NCBI GenBank assembly: GCA_964587845.1
Contig: CAZPNG010000154.1
Location: forward strand, 1 to 26,529
Source: an uncultured bacterium
Lineage (GTDB): Bacteria; Omnitrophota; Omnitrophia; Omnitrophales; CAZPNG01
Length of the DNA: 26,529 nt
Direction: 5' to 3'
The notes under the pieces were generated by a model, which worked only from the letters and a program-made list of their open reading frames with translations, made no database searches and was not told where the DNA came from. The translations under genes were made by a program, and so were the position numbers. Positions 737 through 23,568 of the stretch are shown piece after piece; position 1 is the first letter of the stretch, and each line of letters begins with the position of its first letter.

Positions 737-1039
737 GTGTCTGAACGGTTTTTAAGTCTTGAAGAAACGATGCAATTCCTCTCGACTGAGCGCCGTGGCG
801 TCGAGGACCTCGTGCAGCGCGGCAAGCTCGTGGCGTACCGCATGGGCGGCACCTACCTTCGATTCAAGAAAGAAGAAGTCGAGTCTCTCCTGGCGGGCCG
901 CCGCCGCAAGTTTTCCTGGTCGGTCTCAGGGGGTCAGCGCACCCTGGCCGCGCGCATGCGCGACTTCTGGGCCTTCAACAATCTTTACATCGTGTCCGCG
1001 CTGGTCCTTCTGGTTCTCTTCGTCATCTTCTATCAATAA
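737..1039 (+). CDS. Excisionase-like HTH protein with a C-terminal transmembrane anchor
   Basis: GTG at 737, just after the previous stop. FLSLEETMQFL..VEDLVQRGKLVAYRMGGTYLRFKKEEVESLL is HTH_17-like. The hydrophobic C-terminus LYIVSALVLLVLFVIFYQ fits one TM helix. The ORF-track start at 701 overlaps the previous gene and is less likely. Confidence 0.8.
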   Translation: MSERFLSLEETMQFLSTERRGVEDLVQRGKLVAYRMGGTYLRFKKEEVESLLAGRRRKFSWSVSGGQRTLAARMRDFWAFNNLYIVSALVLLVLFVIFYQ

Positions 1040-1054
1040 AACCCTCTCCCCGAC

Positions 1055-1528
1055 ATGAAAGCCGTGCGCCTGACCCGTGCGGGGTTCACAAAGCTCAAAG
1101 CTGAGCTGGATGACCTCAAGAAAAATCGCCGACCCCAGGTGATCCGCGACATCGCCGAGGCGCGCGCCAAGGGTGACCTGCGTGAGAACGCCGAGTACGA
1201 TGCCGCCAAGGACGCGCAGGCGCACCTGGAAAAGCGAATTGCTGACCTTGAGACGCAGCTTTCACACGTGGAGTTTCTCGAAGACTTCGACATCGACGCC
1301 AGCAAAGCGTATCTCGGCAGCGTCGTGCGCTTGAAGGACCTCGTGCGCGACAAGGAGATCGAGTACCTCCTGGTTTCCAAAGAAGAGGCGGATCACGCGG
1401 CCGGCAAGATTTCCATCGAGTCCCCGGTGGGCCGCGCCCTGTTGGGTAAGGAGAAAGGCGCGCGCGTAACGGGCAGCGTGCCGGCCGGGGCGTTCTCCTA
1501 CGAAATCCTCAGCATCCGGCGCGCCTGA
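1055..1528 (+). CDS. greA: Transcription elongation factor GreA
   Basis: LTRAGFTKLKAEL..RPQVIRDIAEARAKGDLRENAEYDAAK (GDLxENAEY motif) and ISIESPVGRALLGK. Confidence 0.97.
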   Translation: MKAVRLTRAGFTKLKAELDDLKKNRRPQVIRDIAEARAKGDLRENAEYDAAKDAQAHLEKRIADLETQLSHVEFLEDFDIDASKAYLGSVVRLKDLVRDKEIEYLLVSKEEADHAAGKISIESPVGRALLGKEKGARVTGSVPAGAFSYEILSIRRA

Positions 1529-1531
1529 CGC

Positions 1532-2668
1532 GTGAGCGAAGTCGTTCGCCTCATCACACTCGCCGCATTCCGAAGGCTCAAACGAAGGCCAAACTTTCTT
1601 GGCTTCACGTTCAGCCCCGGCGAACGGCGCTACGCGCTCACCCGCCCACATCCGGATGAGCATCTGTCGGCCCGCTACGCCGCCAAGCTTGCGTTGCTCG
1701 AGCTGCTGGCCTGGGCGAAGCCGCCCGTGGCCCTGCGCGAGCTTGAAATTGCGCGAAAGCCGCATTCGCCGCCCGAGTTTCATCTAAGCGCCCGAGTTCG
1801 TCAGGCGCTCGGCCTCCCGCAGAAAGGCCCCCTGTGGCTCAGCTTGACGCACGAGCGCGACCGCGCGGCCGCGTATGTGGTTTTCCGGGCCGCTGAGCGG
1901 GTTCTCACCGTGACCGCCGATGACTTCAATCTTGCCCCGGGAGTCTCACGCGGCATTCTCGATGCGCACGAGCGGGGGATCGTCAGCAACACGTCTTTTT
2001 TGGTGAATTACCCGTTTCCAAGTGCTGTGCGCGCGCAACTGGCGCGTGCCAGGCGGCTGGCCGTCGGGCTGCACGTGAATCTCGTGCGCGGCAAGCCCGT
2101 GGCGGGGCGCTCGCGGGTGCGCGCGCTCCTCACCGCTGCCGGAGAGTTCACGCCCAGGCCCCTTGCGTTCTACAACACGGTGAGCCGCTCGGCACTGGAG
2201 TCCGAATGCCGGGCTCAGTTCAAGCGCTTCTCGAGCCTCTTGGGCGCGAAACCCCATCACTTGGACACGCACCACCACACCCACCGCCATCCGCGCGTGC
2301 TGGCGGTCGTGATGCAGCTTGCGCGCGAGCACGGCATTCCCGTGCGCCACACGGGGGAGGCAGGCCGGCATCACCCGTTGTTTTTAGCCGACCGCGTGTG
2401 GGGTTCACTCGACCGCGCGGGCATTTGGTCGCAGGCGTCGCTCGCGAAGAAGCTGCAAGCGTTGCCGAAGGGCGTCACGGAGGTGGCGTGCCATCCCGGC
2501 CGGGTAGACCGCCTGCTCGCCACCCGCAGCAGCTTTCTCGGCGAACGGGAGAAGGAAACGGCCGTGTTTTGCGCTCCCGGGCTGCGGCGCCTGCTCGCGC
2601 GCGAGAGAATCTGGCTCGCCTCGAGCCGAACCTTGGGGAGTCTTCGTGAACATTCTGCTGACGAATGA
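1532..2668 (+). CDS. Fusion of a degenerate AcpS-like (phosphopantetheinyl transferase) domain and a YdjC/ChbG-family carbohydrate deacetylase
   Basis: Residues ~20-118 (FTFSPGERRY..EHLSARYAAKLA..LEIARK..P.F.L..LSLTHE..AAAYV) follow the AcpS pattern. Residues ~124-378 carry YdjC motifs TADDFNL, TSFLVN, VGLHVNL, ECRAQF, HLDTHHHTH and EVACHPG. Confidence 0.8.
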   Translation: MSEVVRLITLAAFRRLKRRPNFLGFTFSPGERRYALTRPHPDEHLSARYAAKLALLELLAWAKPPVALRELEIARKPHSPPEFHLSARVRQALGLPQKGPLWLSLTHERDRAAAYVVFRAAERVLTVTADDFNLAPGVSRGILDAHERGIVSNTSFLVNYPFPSAVRAQLARARRLAVGLHVNLVRGKPVAGRSRVRALLTAAGEFTPRPLAFYNTVSRSALESECRAQFKRFSSLLGAKPHHLDTHHHTHRHPRVLAVVMQLAREHGIPVRHTGEAGRHHPLFLADRVWGSLDRAGIWSQASLAKKLQALPKGVTEVACHPGRVDRLLATRSSFLGEREKETAVFCAPGLRRLLARERIWLASSRTLGSLREHSADE

Positions 2669-4669: not shown

Positions 4670-5254
4670 CTAATCTTTCTTTGCCAGACCCAGGACTTCT
4701 AGGAATTCGTCCACATTCTTGGAGACACGAATCGTGTGTTTTATCTTGGCGGATTGCGGGATTTTATAAAGGTGAGCCGTAAAACCGAGTTTGGCGATCG
4801 CGGCCATAACGTCGGTTGCTAAACTTGGCAGCATCGTTACGAAATTTACCATCTTGTATGCCCTGTCGTAGTAAATAGAGCCGTCGGTTTCAATGAGCCC
4901 CTGGAGGCAAGGGATGATGAAGCGTTTATCGTTTTGAATCCAGCGAGGAACGGAAACTTGCTGGCGGTATTTCGGCCCCTTGTCTGCTTTCCATCCGAGC
5001 CACCTCTCCCATCGATTGGAATAACAGCTAATGTCGACACAATTTTTAGGACGGCGTACAAGACTTACTTTATTATGCGGCAGGAGAGTTTGAATCGCTC
5101 TACAGATGCGGCGGAGAATGCTCTTGTATTTAACGTCACACGTGATTCTCAGTCTGGTAGCTCCACGGTTAGGATTTGAAAGATTGCCGTCCCCGATCGC
5201 GGCACCTACCACATAGGCTAAGACTTTCCTATCTACATCATGCAGATGAGGCAT
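4670..5254 (-). CDS. Free-standing double-motif LAGLIDADG homing-endonuclease-like protein (~194 aa)
   Basis: Two LAGLIDADG helices, LAYVVGAAIGDGNL and CLQGLIETDGSI. The first ATG outside the tRNA-Leu gene is at 5254; the ORF-track extension to 5368 runs through the tRNA. Hand-counted GC is ~47-48% in two sample lines versus ~65% in a leuS line. Confidence 0.88.
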   Translation of the reverse strand: MPHLHDVDRKVLAYVVGAAIGDGNLSNPNRGATRLRITCDVKYKSILRRICRAIQTLLPHNKVSLVRRPKNCVDISCYSNRWERWLGWKADKGPKYRQQVSVPRWIQNDKRFIIPCLQGLIETDGSIYYDRAYKMVNFVTMLPSLATDVMAAIAKLGFTAHLYKIPQSAKIKHTIRVSKNVDEFLEVLGLAKKD

Positions 5255-5257
5255 TCG

Positions 5258-5340
5258 TGCCGCTGGTCGGAGTCGAACCGACATGAGCTCGCGCTCACAG
5301 GTTTTTGAGACCTGCATGTCTGCCATTCCATCACAGCGGC
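5258..5340 (-). tRNA. tRNA-Leu(CAA), CCA not encoded
   Basis: GCCGCTG/CAGCGGC acceptor stem plus discriminator A. Anticodon arm CAGGT-CTCAAAA-ACCTG. Long variable arm TGAGC-GCGA-GCTCA. T arm GTCGG-TTCGACT-CCGAC. The gene is followed by CGA rather than CCA. Confidence 0.95.
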
Positions 5341-5345
5341 ATAAC

Positions 5346-5444
5346 GTGTACCTGAGGGGATTTGACACCTGCGGCTCGCTCTGTCTTTCTGCGTCTCGCT
5401 GGCGCTCGACGCGGCCAGGCTTGCCCCAAGTCGGCCACAGGCCC
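5346..5444 (-). pseudogene. tRNA-Ala-derived remnant with an unrelated GC-rich hairpin interior
   Basis: The 5' end GGGCCTGT is identical to the adjacent tRNA-Ala 5' end. The 3' end CAGGTGTCAAATCCCCTCAGGTACAC resembles CAGGGGTTCGAATCCCCTCAGGTCCAC, with 13 identical nt (5350-5362 vs 5479-5491). There is no recognisable anticodon arm and no CCA. Confidence 0.6.
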
Positions 5445-5472: not shown

Positions 5473-5548
5473 TGGTGGACCTGAGGGGATTCGAACCCCT
5501 GACCCTCAGCATGCCATGCTGATGCTCTGCCGGCTGAGCTACAGGCCC
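5473..5548 (-). tRNA. tRNA-Ala(GGC)
   Basis: 76 nt. GGGCCTG/CAGGTCC acceptor with the G3:U70 alanine identity pair. Anticodon arm TCAGC-ATGGCAT-GCTGA with A32/U38 as in known Ala(GGC) tRNAs. T arm AGGGG-TTCGAAT-CCCCT. ACCA end is encoded. Confidence 0.96.
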
Positions 5549-11790: not shown

Positions 11791-14274
11791 GTGTCGCGGC
11801 GTTTTCCATTTCTTCATTTTTTCCTCTTCCTGACGGCGGGAATCCTCATCCAGCCCGTTGCTTTCCGGTCCTGGCCGGGTGTTGGAATCTGTGCGGCCGG
11901 GGCCGGGCTTTGCGCAACGGCCGTCCTGGCCTGCGAGCTGCTACCCGGTCTTCTCAAGGTGAGAGCGAACGCGTGGTGGCGCGCCCGCGGGTTCGCGGCC
12001 CTTTTGGGTTTTGCGATTTTTTTCTCCGGGGTCGTTTCGAGCTACTGCTTTTTTTCCGAGACGGCGGGCTGCGCGCTATCAGTCGGTCCCGCCGAGATCG
12101 AGGGCGACATTGCGGGGCCGGTGGAGGTCGTTCGCCGCGGCCGGCAGCGCCGTGTCGCCTTTGAGCTGGAAACGCTTGCCGGGGGGCCGGCGCCCCCACC
12201 TCCGGTCTCTCGACCTTCGGGGACTTGCCAGCCGACCCGCTTTCAGCGGGTGCCCCGGCTGCCGGCGCGAGCGCGCGTGCAATGCTTTCTCGTCAACCCA
12301 CCGGGGTCTCTGCGCTCCGCGGACCGCGTTCGCCTGGCCGGGCGCCTGGAGGATCCGCCCGGCGCGCGCAATCCGGGCGAGTTTGATTACGCGGCGTTCC
12401 TGCGCTCGCAAGGAATTCGATATGTGTTCCGGGGAGTCGGGACCCGGAGCGTGCTGGGAGGGGTGCGCCGCCGGCCGGCCTCGCTCGCCGCCTGGTTTTA
12501 CCGAATGCGGGGAATGCTCTCCACCCGTCTGGCGCGCGCCATGCGCCCTCCGGAGGGGGACCTGGTAGCCGCCCTCTGCCTCGGCGAGCGGCGCGGCCTG
12601 TCACCGGAACTCACGGCCGATTTCGTGCGCACGGGCCTCGTGCACGTGATCGCCGTGAGCGGTTTCAACGTGTGGCTCCTCGCCGGCGGCCTATGGGGCG
12701 CGCTCAAGCTTTGCGCCGTCCCGCCCCGCATGGCCGTGGCGGCCTGCCTGGCCACGGTGGGCGGATACGTGTTTTTGTCCGGCGCGCCCGTGACCGTGGT
12801 GCGGGCGGCGTGGATGGCCGCCGGCGCGTTTCTCGCGGTTCTCCTGCGGGAGCCGGCCGCGTCGCTCAATTTCCTGTTTTTTGCAAGCTTTCTCATTTTG
12901 TTCGCCGACCCCGGCGCCCTGGCCTTGCCGTCGTTTCAACTTTCCTTTGCCTCTTCGCTCGCGCTGCTCACGCTGGCGCCCCGTCTAGACATGGGCTCCG
13001 GCAGCGGACGGCCGCGAAGCCGCAAGCGCGCGGCGAGAAGCTGGAGAGCCGCGCGCTGGCTCGCCCGGCAAGTTTTCTCCTCCCTCAGTGTGAGCGCAGC
13101 CGTCTTGATCGGCGCGGGGCCCGTGAGCGCCTGGCACTTCCATGCGCTCTCGCTCGTGTCCGTTTTGGCCAACCTCCTCGTGCTGCCGTTGTTTGTGCTG
13201 GCCATGTGGTGCGCGCTGCCCGGCCTTGTGAGTTTGGTGGCCTGGCCGCCGGCGGCATCCGTGTTTCTCGAGGGCGCCCGGGTGCTTCTCGGCGGCGCTG
13301 TGGCGTTGAACGGTTATCTGGCACGGCTGCCCGGGTTCTTTCCGGTGCCGAAGGCCGCGTGGGGGTGGCTGGCGCTCGGATGCGCTTTCCTCGGGGCCTA
13401 TGCTCTGGCGGGCCGGGCGGGGGCCCTCCGGGCCCTTTGGCCCGTAGGGCCGGGGGCAGGCAGGATTTCCCGGCTGCCTCGCCCTGCCTATCTCGCCGGG
13501 GCGGCGCTCGCCGTACTCGGGGGGCTTGTTTTCTCGGCCGCCGCTCGCGAGCAACCCTTCTCGTTCACGGTCCTCGCTGCGCGGCAAGGATTTGTCGCCC
13601 TGGCTCGCATGCCGGGCCGGGCCCCCGTGTTGTTCAACACGGGCGGCGGCCGGTCGGGCCGCGGCGTCTTTTGGCTCACGCTTCCCTATTTGCGCTCCCA
13701 GGGCGTTCGGCGCTTGAGCGGCTTGGTCTTGCATTCCCTTTCTGCCGCCGACGCGGGCGGCCTTGCGGTGCTGGGCCGGCAGGTAGAGGTGGGTAGGGTC
13801 TTCGTGCCTGCGAAGGACGCAAAACGCGCGGCCGCCGTGGACCCTTCCGTCGGACGGAGGATGAGCGTTTATCGCCTCCGCGAGTCGCTGCAGCTTGAAC
13901 CCGGGACAGGAGTCGCGCAGCGCGTAGCGCCTTTTGCATGGATGTTCTCCGGCCGGTCCGTCAGGATCGCTGTGCTCATGTCTGCTCGAGCTTCCGGCGC
14001 CCTCGGCCTGCGAAATCAAGGGGGCTGTTTCGATGCGGTCGTCTTGGCTGCCGGCTCAAGCGGCGAACGCAAGGGTCCGTGGGCGTCCTACGCGAAGCGG
14101 TGCCCCGAAACGGTCATGGTCACCGCCGACAAGAAGGGGGATGGCGGCTTTCTTCGAGGGCTCGGGTTAAGGAGTTTCGCGACATCGGCGTGCGGTATGG
14201 TTCGGCTCATCGAGTCGCCGGCCGGGCAGGTTGCGGTCGAAACCTTTCTCCCCTGTTCCTCGCTGCACGTTTGA
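11791..14274 (+). CDS. comEC: ComEC/Rec2 DNA-uptake membrane protein with a degenerate beta-lactamase-fold C-terminus and a 25-aa insert
   Basis: SD AGGAGG before GTG. N-terminal TMs, OB-fold region (LAGRLEDPPGARNPGEFDYAAFLRSQGI), competence domain (ALCLGER..TGLVHVIAVSGFNV..VVRAAWM..PSFQLSF) and a C-terminal MBL-like region. Confidence 0.9.
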   Translation: MSRRFPFLHFFLFLTAGILIQPVAFRSWPGVGICAAGAGLCATAVLACELLPGLLKVRANAWWRARGFAALLGFAIFFSGVVSSYCFFSETAGCALSVGPAEIEGDIAGPVEVVRRGRQRRVAFELETLAGGPAPPPPVSRPSGTCQPTRFQRVPRLPARARVQCFLVNPPGSLRSADRVRLAGRLEDPPGARNPGEFDYAAFLRSQGIRYVFRGVGTRSVLGGVRRRPASLAAWFYRMRGMLSTRLARAMRPPEGDLVAALCLGERRGLSPELTADFVRTGLVHVIAVSGFNVWLLAGGLWGALKLCAVPPRMAVAACLATVGGYVFLSGAPVTVVRAAWMAAGAFLAVLLREPAASLNFLFFASFLILFADPGALALPSFQLSFASSLALLTLAPRLDMGSGSGRPRSRKRAARSWRAARWLARQVFSSLSVSAAVLIGAGPVSAWHFHALSLVSVLANLLVLPLFVLAMWCALPGLVSLVAWPPAASVFLEGARVLLGGAVALNGYLARLPGFFPVPKAAWGWLALGCAFLGAYALAGRAGALRALWPVGPGAGRISRLPRPAYLAGAALAVLGGLVFSAAAREQPFSFTVLAARQGFVALARMPGRAPVLFNTGGGRSGRGVFWLTLPYLRSQGVRRLSGLVLHSLSAADAGGLAVLGRQVEVGRVFVPAKDAKRAAAVDPSVGRRMSVYRLRESLQLEPGTGVAQRVAPFAWMFSGRSVRIAVLMSARASGALGLRNQGGCFDAVVLAAGSSGERKGPWASYAKRCPETVMVTADKKGDGGFLRGLGLRSFATSACGMVRLIESPAGQVAVETFLPCSSLHV
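12188..12268 (-). mobile_element. 75-bp palindromic element plus 6-bp direct repeat, in-frame within comEC (copy 1)
   Basis: CGGCGC at 12188-12193 and 12263-12268, exactly 75 nt apart. 12188-12269 is the reverse complement of 21265-21346 at 81/82 positions. It encodes [23 protein letters not shown] within ComEC. Confidence 0.85.
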
Positions 14275-19258: not shown

Positions 19259-20925
19259 AACCTTCTCATTCTCCAGGCGCGCGCGGCGCGAGAGCCGGCT
19301 CGCCGCATCTGACTGATTTACACGGCGCCCCGGCCGAAGAGGGGTCTGTCTTCGCGGGCCCGGCGAGCGAGAAGCTCGCGCTCCTGAAGCACGCCCGCCA
19401 AGTGGGGTCCTTGACGCTCGCCAGCCGCGTGGTCGGCATGTTTCGCGACATCGTCAATGCGGGCCTCTTCGGCACCGGCATGGTGTGGGACGCGTTCGTC
19501 TACGCCTTCATGATTCCCAACTTCCTGCGGGGTCTCGTGGCCGAGGGGGCGCTCTCGAGCGCCTTCATTCCGGTGTACGCTCAGGTCAGGAAGGAGGGCG
19601 GCCCTCAAGCCGCCTTTCGCTTCGGCCGGCTGATCTTAAACGGGCTGGCCATCGCCTGGCTCGGCGCGCTCGCCCTCGTGTACCTCGCCCTGGCGTGGGT
19701 CCCGCAGGCGTTTGGTTTAAGCCCCAAGCTCGCGCTCGCGATCGAGCTCCTTCGGGTCGTCTTCCCCTACATTGTATTTCTGTCGCTGGCGGCCGTGTGC
19801 ATGGCGATGCTCAACTCGGAAAACCACTTTGTCATTCCCGCGCTGTCTCCCTGCCTGATGAATTTCATCTGGCTCCTCGCCGTCGGGGTGGCCTGTCCGC
19901 TGGCGGGTGGCAGCCTCGAGCGGCAGGCCTTTGTGTTGGCCGCGATCGTCTCGGTGGGGGGCTTGATTCAGCTTGTCTTGAACGGCGGGGCGCTCTCGCG
20001 GCGGGGATTCCGGTGGCGTTGGGAATGGAAGCACGATGACCCGCTCGCCGGGCGGTTCTTCGCGCTCCTGGCCCCAGCTGCTCTCGGCTATGCCATTACC
20101 CAGGTGAACCTGTTCATCGATCTCTCGTTCGGATTTTTCCTGGGTGACGGCGCGAGTTCCAGTCTTTGGTACGGCAACCGGCTCATGCAGTTTCCCATGG
20201 GAATTATCTCGATCGCCATGGCCACGGCGCTCTTCCCGCTCTTGAGCCGCGCCGCGGCCTCGCGGGATCATGTGCAGCTTGAGGAGACCCTGACCTTCTC
20301 GCTCAAGACCGTGTTCCTCATCATCTTGCCGGCCAGCGCCGGCCTGATCGTCCTCTCGGAGCCCATCATGCGGGTGCTCTTTGAGCGCGGGCGCTTTGAC
20401 GAGGTGTCCACGCTGCGGGCGTCCCGCGTGCTGGTTTGCTACGCCATCGGCCTTTTTGCGCACTCTGGATCCAAGCTCCTGCGCGCCGCGTTTTATTCCC
20501 TGCAAGACGTGAAGATGCCGGTGCGCGTCGGCGCCGCCGCGGTGACGCTCAACGTGGTGTTGAACCTCATCCTCATGCGCTATCTGGCGGAAGCGGGCCT
20601 GGCGCTCGCCACCACCTTGAGCGGGATCTTCGAGTTCGCCGTCTTGATGGTGCTCCTCAAAGCGAAGATTCACTTCCCGGGTGCGAGGGCCCTGGCGCGC
20701 GTTTCCCTGCAGGCCCTTGCGGCGAGCGCGGTGATGGCGGCGCTCGTGACGGTCTTGTTCGACTGGATGTCTGCGCGCCTTGCGCCGATGGGCTTCTGGG
20801 GCGAGGCCCTGGCGCTCGCCGCAGTCATGGCTCTGGGCGCCGCGGCCTACGCGGGGCTGGCGCGGCTTTTCGGCGTGCGCGAGCTGGCGCGTGCCGTCCA
20901 AACGTTGTCCAGAAAGGCGCCGTGA
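19252..20925 (+). CDS. murJ: Lipid II flippase MurJ (start codon uncertain)
   Basis: TLASRVVGMFRD..DAFVYAFMIPNFLRGLVAEGALSSAFIPV, YGNRLMQFPMGI, LFERGRF, FYSLQDVKMP, GLALATTLS. The first ~38 codons look non-homologous. Confidence 0.93.
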   Translation: MSKPSHSPGARGARAGSPHLTDLHGAPAEEGSVFAGPASEKLALLKHARQVGSLTLASRVVGMFRDIVNAGLFGTGMVWDAFVYAFMIPNFLRGLVAEGALSSAFIPVYAQVRKEGGPQAAFRFGRLILNGLAIAWLGALALVYLALAWVPQAFGLSPKLALAIELLRVVFPYIVFLSLAAVCMAMLNSENHFVIPALSPCLMNFIWLLAVGVACPLAGGSLERQAFVLAAIVSVGGLIQLVLNGGALSRRGFRWRWEWKHDDPLAGRFFALLAPAALGYAITQVNLFIDLSFGFFLGDGASSSLWYGNRLMQFPMGIISIAMATALFPLLSRAAASRDHVQLEETLTFSLKTVFLIILPASAGLIVLSEPIMRVLFERGRFDEVSTLRASRVLVCYAIGLFAHSGSKLLRAAFYSLQDVKMPVRVGAAAVTLNVVLNLILMRYLAEAGLALATTLSGIFEFAVLMVLLKAKIHFPGARALARVSLQALAASAVMAALVTVLFDWMSARLAPMGFWGEALALAAVMALGAAAYAGLARLFGVRELARAVQTLSRKAP

Positions 20926-22439
20926 AGGACCTAAAGGAAACCGTGCGCGCTCTGCCCCACCGGCCGGGCGTTTACCTGTTCAAAGACAAGGATGCGGGGG
21001 TGCTGTACATCGGCAAGGCCGCGGACCTGCGCAAGCGCGTGGCTTCCTATCTGACCCAGCGTTGGAATAGCCCCAAGCTCGAGGCCATGACGGGCAAGAT
21101 TGCCTCCGTGGATTGCGTGGAGACGCCGACCGAGGTGGAGGCGCTGCTGCTCGAAGCGCACCTCGTCAAAGAGCTCGAGCCCCGATACAACACGATGCTG
21201 CGGGACGACAAGAGCTACCCGCTCTTGAAGATCTCCGGCGAGCGGTTTCCGCGCCTCTCGCTTGCGCGCCGGCAGCCGGGGCACCCGCTGAAAGCGGGTC
21301 GGCTGGCAAGTCCCCGAAGGTCGACAGACCGGAGGTGGGGGCGCCGCGGGCAAGACCGGCGCGCCTCTTACTACGGCCCCTTTACGGACGCCAAACTCTT
21401 GCGGGAGGCGATCCGCATCATCAACACGATCTTCCCGCTGCGCAAGTGCCAACCGCTCCCCAAGCGGGAGTGCCTGTATTATCATCTGCACCAGTGCCTG
21501 GCTCCCTGCATCAAGCCCGACGTGAAGCCAGAGTACGACCGCGTGGTCGGAGAGGTGAAGCGCTTTTTGGCGGGCGGCAAGAAAAGCTTGATCGAGTACC
21601 TCACGGAGCGCATGGAGGAGGCGGCCGGGGAGCTTCGCTTTGAAGACGCTCAGATGTTTAAAGAGCAGCTTGACGCGCTCTCGCGCCTGCGCCGCCGCCG
21701 GTTCCATCCCGCACAGCCCCCCGGCCGTGCGGTGGCGCTCTCAGCCACCCAGGAGTTGAAGTCCGTCTTTCGGCTCAAACGGCTTCCCGAGCGCATCGTC
21801 TGCTTCGACGTGTCCAACGTGCAGGGCGCTTACGCGACCGCCTCGCGCGTGAGCTTTTACCGCGAGCTGCCCGACAAGAACGAGTACCGCCGCTACCGCA
21901 TCCGCACGGTGCGGGGCATCGACGACTACGCCATGATCCGCGAAGTCGTGACGCGCATGATCTGCGGCCTGCGGGAAGGGCGGGAAGCGTTTGATCCCGA
22001 TCTCCTGCTGATCGACGGGGGCAGGGGGCACTTGTCCTCGGCCCTGCGGGCCATGAAGGCGGAGGGCTACGAGGGCCCTCTCGTGGTGGCCATTGCGAAA
22101 CGCTTCGAGCACCTGTACACTTCTCACTCACCGGGGCCGGTCGTGCTGGAGCGGGATTCCTCGGCCCTTCGGCTGCTCATCCGCGTGAGGGACGAGGCGC
22201 ACCGTTTCGCGGTCAGCTACCATCGCTTGTTGCGCTCCAAGGGCTTGCAGGCGTCACTCCTGGACCACATTCCGGGCGTGGGCGAGGAACGCAAGCGGCA
22301 ACTTTTGCGCGCGTTCGGGTCCGTGGAGGCGATTCGCGACGCCGAACCGGCCGTGCTGGCGAGACTGCACGGCATGAATGCGGCGATCGCGCACCGGGTC
22401 AGTTCCTATCTCGCGCGGGCATCGGGAAGTGCGGCGTAA
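20922..22439 (+). CDS. uvrC: Excinuclease ABC subunit C (505 aa, including a 25-aa insert)
   Basis: GTGA overlap with the murJ stop. GIY-YIG domain [40 protein letters not shown], Cys cluster [16 protein letters not shown] motif, RNase H-like [26 protein letters not shown] and HhH IPGVG. Confidence 0.96.
21266..21346 (+). mobile_element. 75-bp palindromic element plus 6-bp direct repeat, in-frame within uvrC (copy 2)
   Basis: GCGCCG at 21266-21271 and 21341-21346, 75 nt apart. Internal hairpins CAGCCG..ACCCGC-TGAAA-GCGGGT-CGGCTG and GGTC-GACA-GACC. It encodes [25 protein letters not shown]. Confidence 0.85.
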
Positions 22440-22452
22440 TGGAGCGGGTACG

Positions 22453-23568
22453 ATGAACGAATCTCTGGTCCGTCTGAAGGAAACAATTGAGCGTGTCCGC
22501 GCCAAGCTGCAGGAGTTGGTGCGCTTCGTCGATCTCGACGGCAAGCGCGCGGAAATCGACCGCCTCAACGTGGAAATGGCGCGGGAGGGCTTTTGGTCAA
22601 GCCGCGAGCAAGCGCAAAAGGTGGTCGAGTCCCTGAAGGATCTCAAGGCCCTGGCGCAGCCGGTGGAGGAGACTCAGCGGAGCGTGAGCGAGCTCAGTGA
22701 GCTCAGCGAGCTCTTGCGGGACGATGAGGAAGCCGGTTGCAAGGATCTGGAAGAAGAGGCGCGGCGACTCGAAGCGCGCGTCGATGCGCTGAGCTTCCAG
22801 CGCCTGATGTCGGGCCCGCTGGATCGCTCGGGCGCGATCGTCAGCATCAACGCGGGGGCGGGGGGCACGGAGTCCTGCGACTGGGCCAGCATGCTCCTAC
22901 GCATGTATAGCCGCTGGGCGGAGCGCAGGGGGTTCAGCGTGAGCCTGGTGGACGTGATGCCGGGGGAGGAAGCCGGGATCAAGAACGCCACCTTTTTTGT
23001 GCGCGGCGCTTACGCCTATGGATACCTCAAGGCCGAGCGCGGGGTGCACCGGCTTGTGCGCATCAGCCCCTTTGACGCCAACAAGCGCCGGCACACCTCG
23101 TTCGCTTCCCTCGACGTCATTGCGGAGGTGGAGGACGCCCTCGAGGTGGAGTTGAAGGAGAGCGACATCCGCATGGACACCTACCGCGCCGGCGGCGCCG
23201 GCGGCCAGCACGTCAACAAGACCTCTTCGGCCGTCCGCTTGACGCACGTTCCGTCGGGCATCGTGGTCCAGTGCCAGAACGAGCGCTCGCAGTTTCAAAA
23301 CCGCCAAACCGCGTTGAAGGTCTTGAAAGCGCGGCTTTATGAGAAGCGCCTGCGGGACGACGAGGAGAAGCTTCGAAAGGAGTACGGCGAGAAGAAGGAG
23401 ATCGCCTGGGGCAGCCAGATCCGTTCCTACGTGTTCCAACCCTACAAGATGGTCAAAGATCTTCGCTCGGGCGTCGAGACCTCGGACGTGGACGGGGTCA
23501 TGGACGGGGACTTGGACGGTTTCATGGAAGCGTATTTGAAGAGTTTAGGCACCTTAGGGGAATCGTAA
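22453..23568 (+). CDS. prfB: Peptide chain release factor 2, uninterrupted reading frame
   Basis: SD GGAG before the ATG at 22453. [11 protein letters not shown], the RF2-specific SPF motif (RISPFD), GGQ (GAGGQHVN) and WGSQIRSYV. Confidence 0.97.

What the first reader, a model, noticed from the sequence alone, without database searches (positions are those of the whole stretch)
12188..12269. A 75-bp palindromic mini-element inserted in-frame into two unrelated genes (comEC and uvrC) in opposite orientations
Seen: 12188-12269 and 21265-21346 are reverse complements at 81/82 nt. The single difference lies in a hairpin loop (GGTC-GAGA-GACC vs GGTC-GACA-GACC). Each copy is bounded by the same 6-bp direct repeat GCGCCG spaced exactly 75 nt (25 codons). 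The element has only one stop codon in six frames, so it is tolerated in ORFs, and it yields two different peptides from opposite strands. Removing it restores LETLAGGPARARV in ComEC. Established: Rickettsia palindromic elements insert in-frame into genes, and REP/MITE-type elements are mobilised in trans. Inference: a recently active, target-specific (GCGCCG) non-autonomous element that creates new protein segments in this lineage. Two copies in 26 kb suggest many more genome-wide. No mobilising enzyme is in the window.
Basis: partly seen in the sequence, partly recalled or inferred. Interest (0 to 1): 0.9.

Follow-up and report, generated by a model that had tools for sequence, protein, structure and literature searches.

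The report
Mini mobile element inside two genes
A 75-base hairpin-forming DNA element sits in-frame inside two housekeeping genes (comEC and uvrC) of an uncultured Omnitrophota bacterium, adding 25 amino acids to a surface loop of each; this is a new, rare example of a phenomenon best known from Rickettsia.

Summary
Window 12188-12269 and 21265-21346 are reverse complements at 81/82 nt. Each copy is a 69-nt core between two CGGCGC hexamers spaced 75 nt.

Both copies are insertions:
- UvrC has exactly 25 residues that 45 Omnitrophota orthologues lack.
- ComEC has exactly 25 residues that its closest relative lacks (about 65-70% identity).
- Removing the 75 nt restores the orthologous length in both genes.

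A third copy (75/81 identical) turned up in a different Omnitrophota metagenome contig, upstream of an SDR gene. Its similarity starts and stops at the same hexamers. That makes three contexts with one fixed target, which indicates a target-specific non-autonomous element.

AlphaFold places both 25-residue inserts in low-confidence coils between well-predicted beta-strands.

Weaker points:
- It is not a true palindrome. It has two unrelated hairpins and a 5-bp closing stem.
- Five open frames out of six is expected from its 75% GC.
- No further copy was found in any collection scanned: species-representative genomes, JGI metagenomes, viral contigs, plasmids and phages.
- No mobilising enzyme is known, and reads could not be checked.

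It works like Rickettsia palindromic elements and in-frame MITEs but shares no tested defining feature with REP or IS200/IS605 derivatives. I rate it a new member of a known kind, of moderate interest.

The parts
12188..12193 (+). Left CGGCGC hexamer of copy 1. It is either the target or a target-site duplication; the register is ambiguous within the hexamer.
   Evidence: Similarity among the three copies begins exactly here.
12194..12262 (+). 69-nt core of copy 1, inside comEC. Together with one hexamer it makes the 75-nt insertion, ComEC residues about 134-158.
12263..12268 (+). Right CGGCGC hexamer of copy 1.
   Evidence: Similarity among the three copies ends exactly here.
12204..12215 (+). 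Hairpin A, GGTC-TCTC-GACC, extended by CCTC/GGGG over about 12199-12222. Its loop holds the only difference between the two window copies.
12229..12261 (+). Hairpin B. Lower stem CAGCCG/CGGCTG, 4-nt bulge, upper stem ACCCGC/GCGGGT, loop TTTCA. Five of the six differences in the third copy (L082) fall in its loop or bulge and break no pair; the sixth, just 5' of the lower stem (12228), creates an extra pair.
21266..21346 (-). Copy 2 (hexamer + 69-nt core + hexamer), inverted, inside uvrC. It encodes UvrC residues about 118-142, [25 protein letters not shown].
11791..14274 (+). comEC host gene (DUF4131/OB-fold + Competence domains). The insertion lies in a loop of the N-terminal OB-fold domain.
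20922..22439 (+). uvrC host gene; the GTG start overlaps the murJ stop. The insertion lies between two short strands just after the GIY-YIG core and before the invariant YYGP motif.

Best explanation
This is a small non-autonomous mobile DNA element of Omnitrophota. It is a 69-nt core that folds into two hairpins, and it integrates at the hexamer CGGCGC, so every copy is bracketed by CGGCGC repeats 75 nt apart.

Because 75 is a multiple of three and the GC-rich core almost never encodes a stop, an insertion into a gene adds 25 residues in either orientation and leaves the downstream frame intact. Selection then keeps only insertions in tolerant surface loops. Here those are a loop of the ComEC OB-fold domain and a loop just after the GIY-YIG core of UvrC. 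Both host proteins probably remain functional, each carrying a basic, disordered 25-residue loop.

Shown:
- the repeat itself;
- its absence from orthologues;
- a third copy elsewhere with identical boundaries;
- the constant flanking hexamer;
- the loop locations.

Inferred:
- Mobility in trans by an enzyme encoded elsewhere.
- Which mechanism acts. One option is insertion next to a fixed target by a single-strand (HUH-type) transposase or a site-specific recombinase, with no true duplication. The other is a DDE transposase that makes a 6-bp duplication at a strict target. The lack of usable terminal inverted repeats mildly favours the first.
- Loss by slippage between the two hexamers.
For: - Two copies in the window are 81/82 identical, in opposite orientation and in different reading frames, with sharp ends.
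- UvrC has exactly 25 extra residues between LARR and [12 protein letters not shown] that the 11 orthologues inspected column by column lack; the 46-sequence alignment, seen in summary, is consistent (its consensus has no room for the insert). Deleting 75 nt restores the consensus spacing.
- The closest ComEC relative (P0121 on contig L081, same gene order, 76% nt identity) reads FELEALGAAGMRARVQCFL, against FELETLAGGPA[25 aa]RARVQCFL in the window.
- A third copy lies in L082 (JGI Ga0114945_10223785, also ENA k141_294558), a 57% GC Omnitrophota contig. It is 75/81 identical and again reads CGGCGC-69 nt-CGGCGC. Similarity to the window copies begins and ends at the hexamers.
- All seven variable positions among the three copies lie in loops, a bulge or a mismatch. 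One change converts a mismatch into a pair, and the changed loop lengthens its stem.
- The hexamer occurs about once per 270 nt in the window. Three of three insertions beside a pre-existing copy is therefore far from random.
- AlphaFold puts the UvrC insert in a coil with pLDDT <50 at 123-144, between strands 112-115 and 149-151. It puts the ComEC insert in the coil 129-161 (pLDDT 56-65) between strands whose flanks score >92.
- An unrelated 84-nt hairpin repeat sits in-frame five codons away in the UvrC of another Omnitrophota (L044), which shows that this loop tolerates such insertions.
Against: - Only three copies are known.
- No pattern found a real copy in the species-representative genomes. 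JGI metagenomes gave one. Viral contigs, plasmids and phages gave none.
- A profile of the three copies found nothing in 1.24 Mb of Omnitrophota loci.
- No transposase or recombinase is linked to any copy.
- There is no near-identical strain with an empty site. The empty sites come from relatives at 57-70% protein identity, and at the L081 site the hexamer itself is not conserved.
- The terminal inverted repeat is only 5 bp, and the two hairpins are unrelated, unlike the ends of IS200/IS605 elements.
- The junctions have not been checked against reads.
Confidence: 0.75

Rival explanations
1. This is not a transposable element but the trace of rare ectopic copying, by template switching or microhomology-mediated repair. 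A stretch lying between two CGGCGC hexamers at a donor site would be copied into another CGGCGC site, and the abundant hexamer would supply the microhomology at both junctions.
For: - CGGCGC/GCGCCG is very common, with 99 occurrences in 26.5 kb.
- Only two copies lie in the window, 9 kb apart.
- No mobilising enzyme was found.
Against: - Both window copies are derived relative to orthologues, so neither is an obvious donor.
- A third copy with the same two boundaries exists in a different organism and context. That would need the same rare event with the same end points at least three times.
- Variation is confined to unpaired positions, which suggests the hairpins themselves matter.
Confidence: 0.08
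2. The segment is kept for a function of its own rather than as selfish DNA. That function could be a structured DNA or RNA signal, or a basic peptide loop recruited by the host. The three copies would then reflect selection and not recent mobility.
For: - Substitutions avoid the stems.
- Both encoded peptides are strongly basic, with pI about 12, in two DNA-handling proteins.
- The core is 92.6% conserved between organisms that differ by 6% in GC.
Against: - The two genes read opposite strands and so receive unrelated peptides.
- The third copy lies where no gene was called.
- There is no Rfam match.
- No promoter-like site lies within about 300 nt of copy 1, and terminator-like sites are no more frequent than in shuffles; one overlaps the element's last four bases.
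- Orthologues function without the segment.
- Both peptides are predicted to be unstructured.
Confidence: 0.1
3. This is an assembly or chimera artefact. The 75-nt block would have been spliced wrongly into two genes during metagenome assembly.
For: - The window is a single metagenome contig, and its reads could not be examined.
- The independent Logan contig identical to the window covers only 856-1884, not the junctions.
Against: - An artefact would not be expected to add exactly 25 codons twice, in open frames, in opposite orientation, at loop positions and flanked by the same hexamer.
- The same element with the same ends occurs in a separate assembly from another sample.
- The repeat is shorter than typical final assembly k-mers and lies in the middle of the contig (inference).
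Confidence: 0.03

Closest known systems
Rickettsia palindromic elements (RPEs; Ogata et al. 2000, as summarised in PMC10969869)
   Same: - Short, structured, non-coding repeats inserted in-frame into unrelated housekeeping genes.
- They add a peptide segment in places compatible with the protein fold.
- No transposase is carried by the element.
   Different: - RPEs are about 100-150 bp, are confined to Rickettsia, occur in tens of copies and fall into defined sequence families.
- This element is 75 bp and lives in Omnitrophota, and only three copies are known.
- It is always flanked by one fixed hexamer.
- It is read on both strands, giving two unrelated peptides.
- Sequence similarity to RPEs was not tested, because no RPE sequences were on hand.
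Bacterial MITEs that make in-frame fusions (QMITE1/2 of Coxiella, PMC5896051; intragenic ERIC, Correia and Anabaena MITEs, PMC10969869)
   Same: A non-autonomous small element flanked by direct repeats, sometimes inside ORFs, where it contributes basic peptides.
   Different: - Classical MITEs have clear terminal inverted repeats matching a parent IS, and their direct repeats vary in sequence (QMITE1 2-3 nt, QMITE2 7-11 nt).
- Here the ends share only a 5-bp complement (GCGCC/GGCGC).
- The direct repeat is the same 6-mer at all three sites.
- The element is far shorter.
REP/REPIN and BIME elements mobilised by RAYT (TnpA-REP); GTAG- and CGTC-tagged REPs (PMC3733652)
   Same: GC-rich imperfect hairpins of a few tens of nucleotides, with variation concentrated in loops and bulges. 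A trans-acting single-strand transposase is a plausible mobiliser.
   Different: - REPs are 20-40 bp, extragenic, high in copy number and tagged by GTAG or CGTC. This element carries neither tetranucleotide on either strand.
- It has two unlike hairpins.
- It sits inside genes.
IS200/IS605-derived palindrome-associated elements (PATEs)
   Same: They insert next to a short fixed target without a true duplication and have subterminal hairpins instead of inverted repeats. That would explain a 'direct repeat' made of the target plus the element's own right end.
   Different: - The left-end and right-end hairpins of that family resemble each other, and their targets are 4-5 nt.
- Here the two hairpins are unrelated in sequence and size.
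- No Y1 transposase or TnpB is linked to any copy.
- The two window copies lie in opposite orientation on what looks like one replichore.

Membership tests
Rickettsia palindromic elements (RPE) | In-frame insertion of a repeated, structured element into unrelated protein-coding genes, absent from orthologues | tested here: met
   UvrC and ComEC each carry exactly 25 extra residues that orthologues lack. The two copies are 81/82 identical.
Rickettsia palindromic elements (RPE) | Sequence membership in one of the RPE families, in a Rickettsia host, at 100-150 bp | tested here: not met
   The host is Omnitrophota and the length is 75 bp.
MITE (DDE-transposon derivative) | Terminal inverted repeats matching those of an autonomous IS | tested here: not met
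   Reading the 82-nt sequence by eye, its ends share only a 5-bp complement, GCGCC/GGCGC, which forms the closing stem in the ssDNA folds. No IS or transposase lies in the window or beside the third copy.
MITE (DDE-transposon derivative) | Target-site duplication flanking each copy | tested here: inconclusive
   All three copies are flanked by CGGCGC direct repeats. The repeat is identical at every site, so it may be a duplicated strict target, or the target plus the element's own end.
REP / REPIN (RAYT-mobilised) | A 20-40 bp imperfect palindrome with a GTAG or CGTC tag, extragenic and in high copy number | tested here: not met
   By reading the sequences, none of the three copies contains GTAG, CTAC, CGTC or GACG. 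Two of the three copies are intragenic. Only three copies were found in all collections.
REP / REPIN (RAYT-mobilised) | A cognate RAYT (Y1 HUH) gene flanked by the repeats | not testable with these tools
   Only 26.5 kb of this genome and 1.1 kb of the other host are available. There is no transposase or recombinase domain hit in the window.
IS200/IS605-derived PATE | Similar subterminal hairpins at the left and right ends, recognised by one TnpA | tested here: not met
   Hairpin A (4+4 bp, loop TCTC) and hairpin B (6-8 + 6-7 bp, loop TTTCA or a GGC-centred loop) are unrelated in sequence.
IS200/IS605-derived PATE | Insertion 3' of a fixed short target, without duplication | tested here: inconclusive
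   A constant CGGCGC lies on the left of all three copies, which is compatible with this. An empty site from a near-identical strain, needed to tell it from a duplication, was not found.
Known structured RNA families (Rfam), tRNA-derived elements | A match to a curated covariance model, or tRNA detection | tested here: not met
   At Rfam gathering thresholds the window gives only two tRNAs elsewhere. A permissive scan of the element gives only chance-level hits with E around 1 or higher. ARAGORN finds nothing there.

The most novel reading that the evidence does not exclude
Omnitrophota may harbour codon-multiple hairpin mini-elements adapted to live inside genes. Two unrelated families are seen here: this 75-nt element and an 84-nt element. 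On this reading, this family is moved by a single-strand or site-specific enzyme that recognises the strict hexamer CGGCGC, a target rule not described for any MITE or REP family. Together the families would act as a recurrent source of new surface loops in core proteins, having hit the same UvrC loop independently in two lineages.
Probability: 0.2. Interest if true: 0.7.

Novelty: new member of a known kind. Interest (0 to 1): 0.5.

Why it matters
In-frame colonisation of housekeeping genes by selfish repeats is textbook only for Rickettsia, with scattered MITE cases elsewhere. This finding shows the same process in an uncultured, poorly sampled phylum. The element is unusually small, its length is an exact codon multiple, and it is tied to one fixed 6-bp target.

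It also identifies two concrete insertion-tolerant loops, one in UvrC and one in the ComEC OB-fold domain.

For annotation, it explains lineage-specific 25-residue 'insertions' that could otherwise be read as divergence or error.

If the mobilising enzyme can be found, the strict hexamer target and the two-hairpin architecture would give a compact system for studying how such elements choose their sites.

Tried and rejected
1. **Peptide search for other insertions.** I ran a protein search with the five open-frame peptides of the element, to find other proteins that carry it. Nothing was returned. Local phmmer gives the window's own ComEC and UvrC E = 5e-7 and 3e-5 at the same database size. 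The search therefore failed its positive control, and I treat it as uninformative.

2. **Exact-pattern scans of public DNA.**
   - Five patterns were run on the species-representative genomes (plus the uvrC locus search). They gave only chance 20-mer hits, with no extension beyond about 30 nt.
   - Two patterns on viral contigs gave nothing.
   - blastn against plasmids and phages gave nothing.
   - The first metagenome pattern gave nothing. The second found the third copy.

3. **Profile search.** A profile (nhmmer) of the three copies against all 1.24 Mb of fetched loci found no diverged relative.

4. **Known RNA families.** The element is not a known RNA family, tRNA or tRNA-like element.

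5. **Exact-protein look-ups for a sister strain.** I looked for other assemblies of the same strain with an empty site. UvrC, LptE, the gene upstream of comEC, and MurJ are not on record. GreA gave a Logan contig 100% identical to window 856-1884, far from the element.

6. **Neighbouring gene in L082.** After a homology search, the relatives' loci showed a different upstream gene and no element.

7. **Rejected on reasoning:** an intron, intein or translational bypass element (75 nt is too short and both frames are open), an integron attC site, and a CRISPR repeat.
Full report
**1. The observation**

The two stretches exist as described. The repeat finder lists arms 12188-12269 and 21265-21346 as an 82-nt inverted repeat, 99% complementary. 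It is by far the longest repeat in the window. A base-by-base comparison gives 81/82, and similarity is lost on both sides immediately outside these coordinates. A low-stringency blastn of the element against the window finds only these two places (E about 1e-30) and no partial or degenerate copy.

The single mismatch lies in the 4-nt loop of the small hairpin GGTC-TCTC-GACC. Each copy consists of CGGCGC, a 69-nt core, and CGGCGC again, so the hexamers are 75 nt apart.

**2. Host and genes**

The window is an entire 26,529-nt metagenome contig. Its UvrC, and the other loci fetched with it, place it in Omnitrophota. It is an outlier in that phylum:
- It has 63.6% GC, against 58.5% or less in all 80 Omnitrophota uvrC loci fetched.
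- Its best UvrC relative is only 57% identical.

The gene order is bactofilin-like, greA, ydjC-like, surE, two tRNAs, leuS, a GH35/42 glycosidase, an AAA ATPase, a T2SS-like gene, comEC (11791-14274), a TPR/YfiO-like gene, lptE, holA, murJ, uvrC (20922-22439), prfB and secA. None of the 20 larger ORFs scanned against Pfam has a transposase or recombinase domain.

**3. Both copies are insertions**

*UvrC.* The window UvrC was aligned first with 11 and then with 45 Omnitrophota orthologues. It has exactly 25 extra residues ([25 protein letters not shown], about residues 118-142) between ...FPRLSLARR and [12 protein letters not shown]. None of the 11 orthologues inspected column by column has them. 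The 46-sequence alignment was seen only in summary; its consensus leaves no room for them. Without them the spacing to the invariant YYGP motif equals the consensus.

*ComEC.* An exhaustive profile search found one much closer relative, P0121, at 65% identity overall and 68-70% in the N-terminal part. It lies on a 4.1-kb Logan contig (L081) with the same upstream genes and 76% nucleotide identity over 1.1 kb. It reads FELEALGAAGMRARVQCFL where the window reads FELETLAGGPA[25 residues]RARVQCFL. The two have equal length once the 75 nt are removed. At that site L081 has GGATGC where the window keeps CGGCGC, so the hexamer is not conserved at this distance.

**4. A third copy elsewhere**

Most exact-pattern scans of public DNA found nothing. 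One 20-mer pattern hit a 1,096-nt JGI metagenome contig, L082 (the same contig is also held by ENA). That contig carries an 81-nt block 75/81 identical to the window copies. The other six hits to that pattern do not extend and are chance matches.

In a three-way alignment, similarity begins exactly at the left CGGCGC and ends exactly at the right CGGCGC. The flanks are unrelated.

L082 has 57% GC, and its SDR/FabG gene has Omnitrophota relatives. The element lies 66 nt upstream of that gene's start and 24 nt from the contig end, where no gene was called. A relative at 81% SDR identity (L089) has a different upstream arrangement and no element.

**5. What three copies tell us**

Three unrelated contexts share the same two end points and the same flanking hexamer. 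That is the signature of a discrete element with a fixed target. CGGCGC or its complement occurs 99 times in the window, about once per 270 nt. Three of three insertions next to a pre-existing copy cannot be random placement.

Where the break falls within the hexamer cannot be decided without a near-identical empty site. The same applies to whether the hexamer is duplicated or merely matches the element's own end.

All seven variable positions among the copies avoid the stems:
- one lies in the loop of hairpin A;
- four lie in the loop of hairpin B, where TTTCA becomes CGGCG and lengthens the stem;
- one lies in the bulge;
- one turns a mismatch at the base of the lower stem into a pair.

The number of independent events is small, so this only suggests that the hairpins are under constraint.

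**6. Anatomy**

As single-stranded DNA the 81-nt block folds into three parts:
- a 5-bp closing stem (GCGCC/GGCGC, possible because GGCGCC is self-complementary);
- hairpin A;
- the longer, bulged hairpin B.

The z-scores against shuffles are -1.7 to -3.0. As RNA with flanks they are only +0.15 and -1.7. There is no long terminal inverted repeat, and the two hairpins are unrelated to each other.

The element has 75% GC. At that composition five or six open frames out of six are expected 62% of the time. The stop-poor frames are therefore not evidence of adaptation, although the length of 75 nt does guarantee that the frame is preserved.

No Rfam family, tRNA or promoter-like site matches the element; terminator-like sites near it are no more frequent than in shuffles.

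**7. Consequences for the proteins**

The two genes read opposite strands and receive unrelated peptides. Both peptides are very basic (pI about 12) and hydrophilic.

AlphaFold models built on 45-46-sequence alignments give these results:
- The UvrC insert lies in a coil between strands 112-115 and 149-151, with pLDDT below 50 at residues 123-144. Most of the flanking domain scores 77-95, apart from a short dip at residues 93-97.
- The ComEC insert lies in the coil 129-161 between strands 119-128 and 162-168 of the OB-fold domain. Its pLDDT is 56-65, against more than 92 on either side.

Solved GIY-YIG structures end just before the UvrC site, and the solved ComEC aligns only after the insert. 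No experimental structure therefore covers either position.

Another Omnitrophota (L044) independently carries a 28-residue insertion five codons downstream in UvrC. Its DNA belongs to an unrelated family of 84-nt hairpin repeats. That family occurs as tandem units downstream of uvrC in L063 and L056, and also in L068, L071 and L049. This loop therefore tolerates such insertions repeatedly.

**8. Mechanism**

*Best supported:* a non-autonomous element that integrates at CGGCGC and persists only where 25 extra residues are harmless.

*Inferred:* the enzyme.
- The constant 'direct repeat' and the lack of inverted repeats fit insertion beside a fixed target by a single-strand HUH transposase or a site-specific recombinase better than a classical DDE cut-and-paste with a variable duplication.
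- Against an IS200/IS605 origin, the two hairpins are unlike each other, the target would be unusually long, and the two window copies are in opposite orientation on what the steadily rising cumulative GC skew suggests is one replichore.
- The direct repeats at the foot of a folded structure should also allow precise loss by slippage. This is an inference from the well-known behaviour of transposon excision.

**9. Rivals**

- *Ectopic copying by microhomology.* It would need the same end points three times in two organisms.
- *A selected function.* This is hard to square with opposite-strand reading, an apparently non-coding third site, and orthologues that lack the segment.
- *An assembly artefact.* It is unlikely given exact 25-codon additions in loops and the same element in a separate assembly, but reads were not available. 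The only independent confirmation of the contig (Logan ERR3478687, 100% over 856-1884) does not reach the junctions.

**10. Comparison and verdict**

Functionally this element behaves like Rickettsia palindromic elements and the in-frame MITEs reviewed in PMC10969869 and PMC5896051. It is not a member of the RPE, REP/RAYT (no GTAG or CGTC tag; PMC3733652), classical MITE or IS200/IS605-PATE families on the features that could be tested.

A full-text search listed no paper (top 12 of 1,697 hits) that links Omnitrophota with MITE, REP or palindromic elements.

It is a real, previously undescribed but rare element family of a known kind. The claims of high copy number and recent activity remain open.

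Noticed in passing
L044:10370-10456 (UvrC of Omnitrophica bin-627); L063:11648-11919; L056:2894-3079; L068:11702-11793; L071:3580-3665; L049:3205-3287: A second, unrelated family of roughly 84-nt two-hairpin repeats (GGCCGTCCCAATAC...ATTGGGGCGGTC, then TTGACT...AGTCAA). It occurs as two or three tandem units just downstream of uvrC in several Omnitrophota. In L044 a single 84-nt unit (28 codons) is inserted in-frame in UvrC, five codons from the window's insertion point.
   Followed up: partly
window 4670-5368 (-), next to tRNA-Leu(CAA) 5257-5340 (-) and tRNA-Ala(GGC) 5473-5548 (-): An ORF with two LAGLIDADG motifs (Pfam LAGLIDADG_3). Its likely start (Met39, about 5254) lies 3 nt downstream of the tRNA-Leu gene, in the lowest-GC part of the window (55%). 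It looks like a free-standing homing-endonuclease-like gene. No group I intron was detected by Rfam.
   Followed up: partly
L091 (Logan ERR3478687 contig) = window 856-1884: A 1,029-nt contig from an independent assembly is 100% identical to the window. The same strain is therefore present in run ERR3478687, and its reads could be used to test the element junctions.
   Followed up: yes
window, whole; L081: The window (63.6% GC) and its only close relative L081 (67% GC) are much more GC-rich than all 80 Omnitrophota uvrC loci fetched (58.5% or less). The lineage is nearly unsampled: the best UvrC relative is 57% identical and the best ComEC relative 65%.
   Followed up: partly
window 22378-23568 (+): The RF-2-like ORF (PCRF + RF-1 domains) starts 62 nt inside the end of uvrC, and its PCRF domain begins only at residue 58. 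Whether the true start is later, or a programmed +1 frameshift is present, was not examined.
   Followed up: no
L063:12163-12235 and 13249-13296: Arrays of a GGGGAAC-like heptamer occur in inverted orientation about 1 kb apart, in a 2-kb stretch downstream of uvrC that has no ORF of 130 aa or longer.
   Followed up: no
L089:9970-10000: In the relative of L082, the spacer between the thioredoxin-reductase-like gene and the SDR gene holds a perfect palindrome, GGGGTCTGACCCC-TT-GGGGTCAGACCCC. In L082 the 75-nt element lies upstream of the same SDR gene.
   Followed up: no
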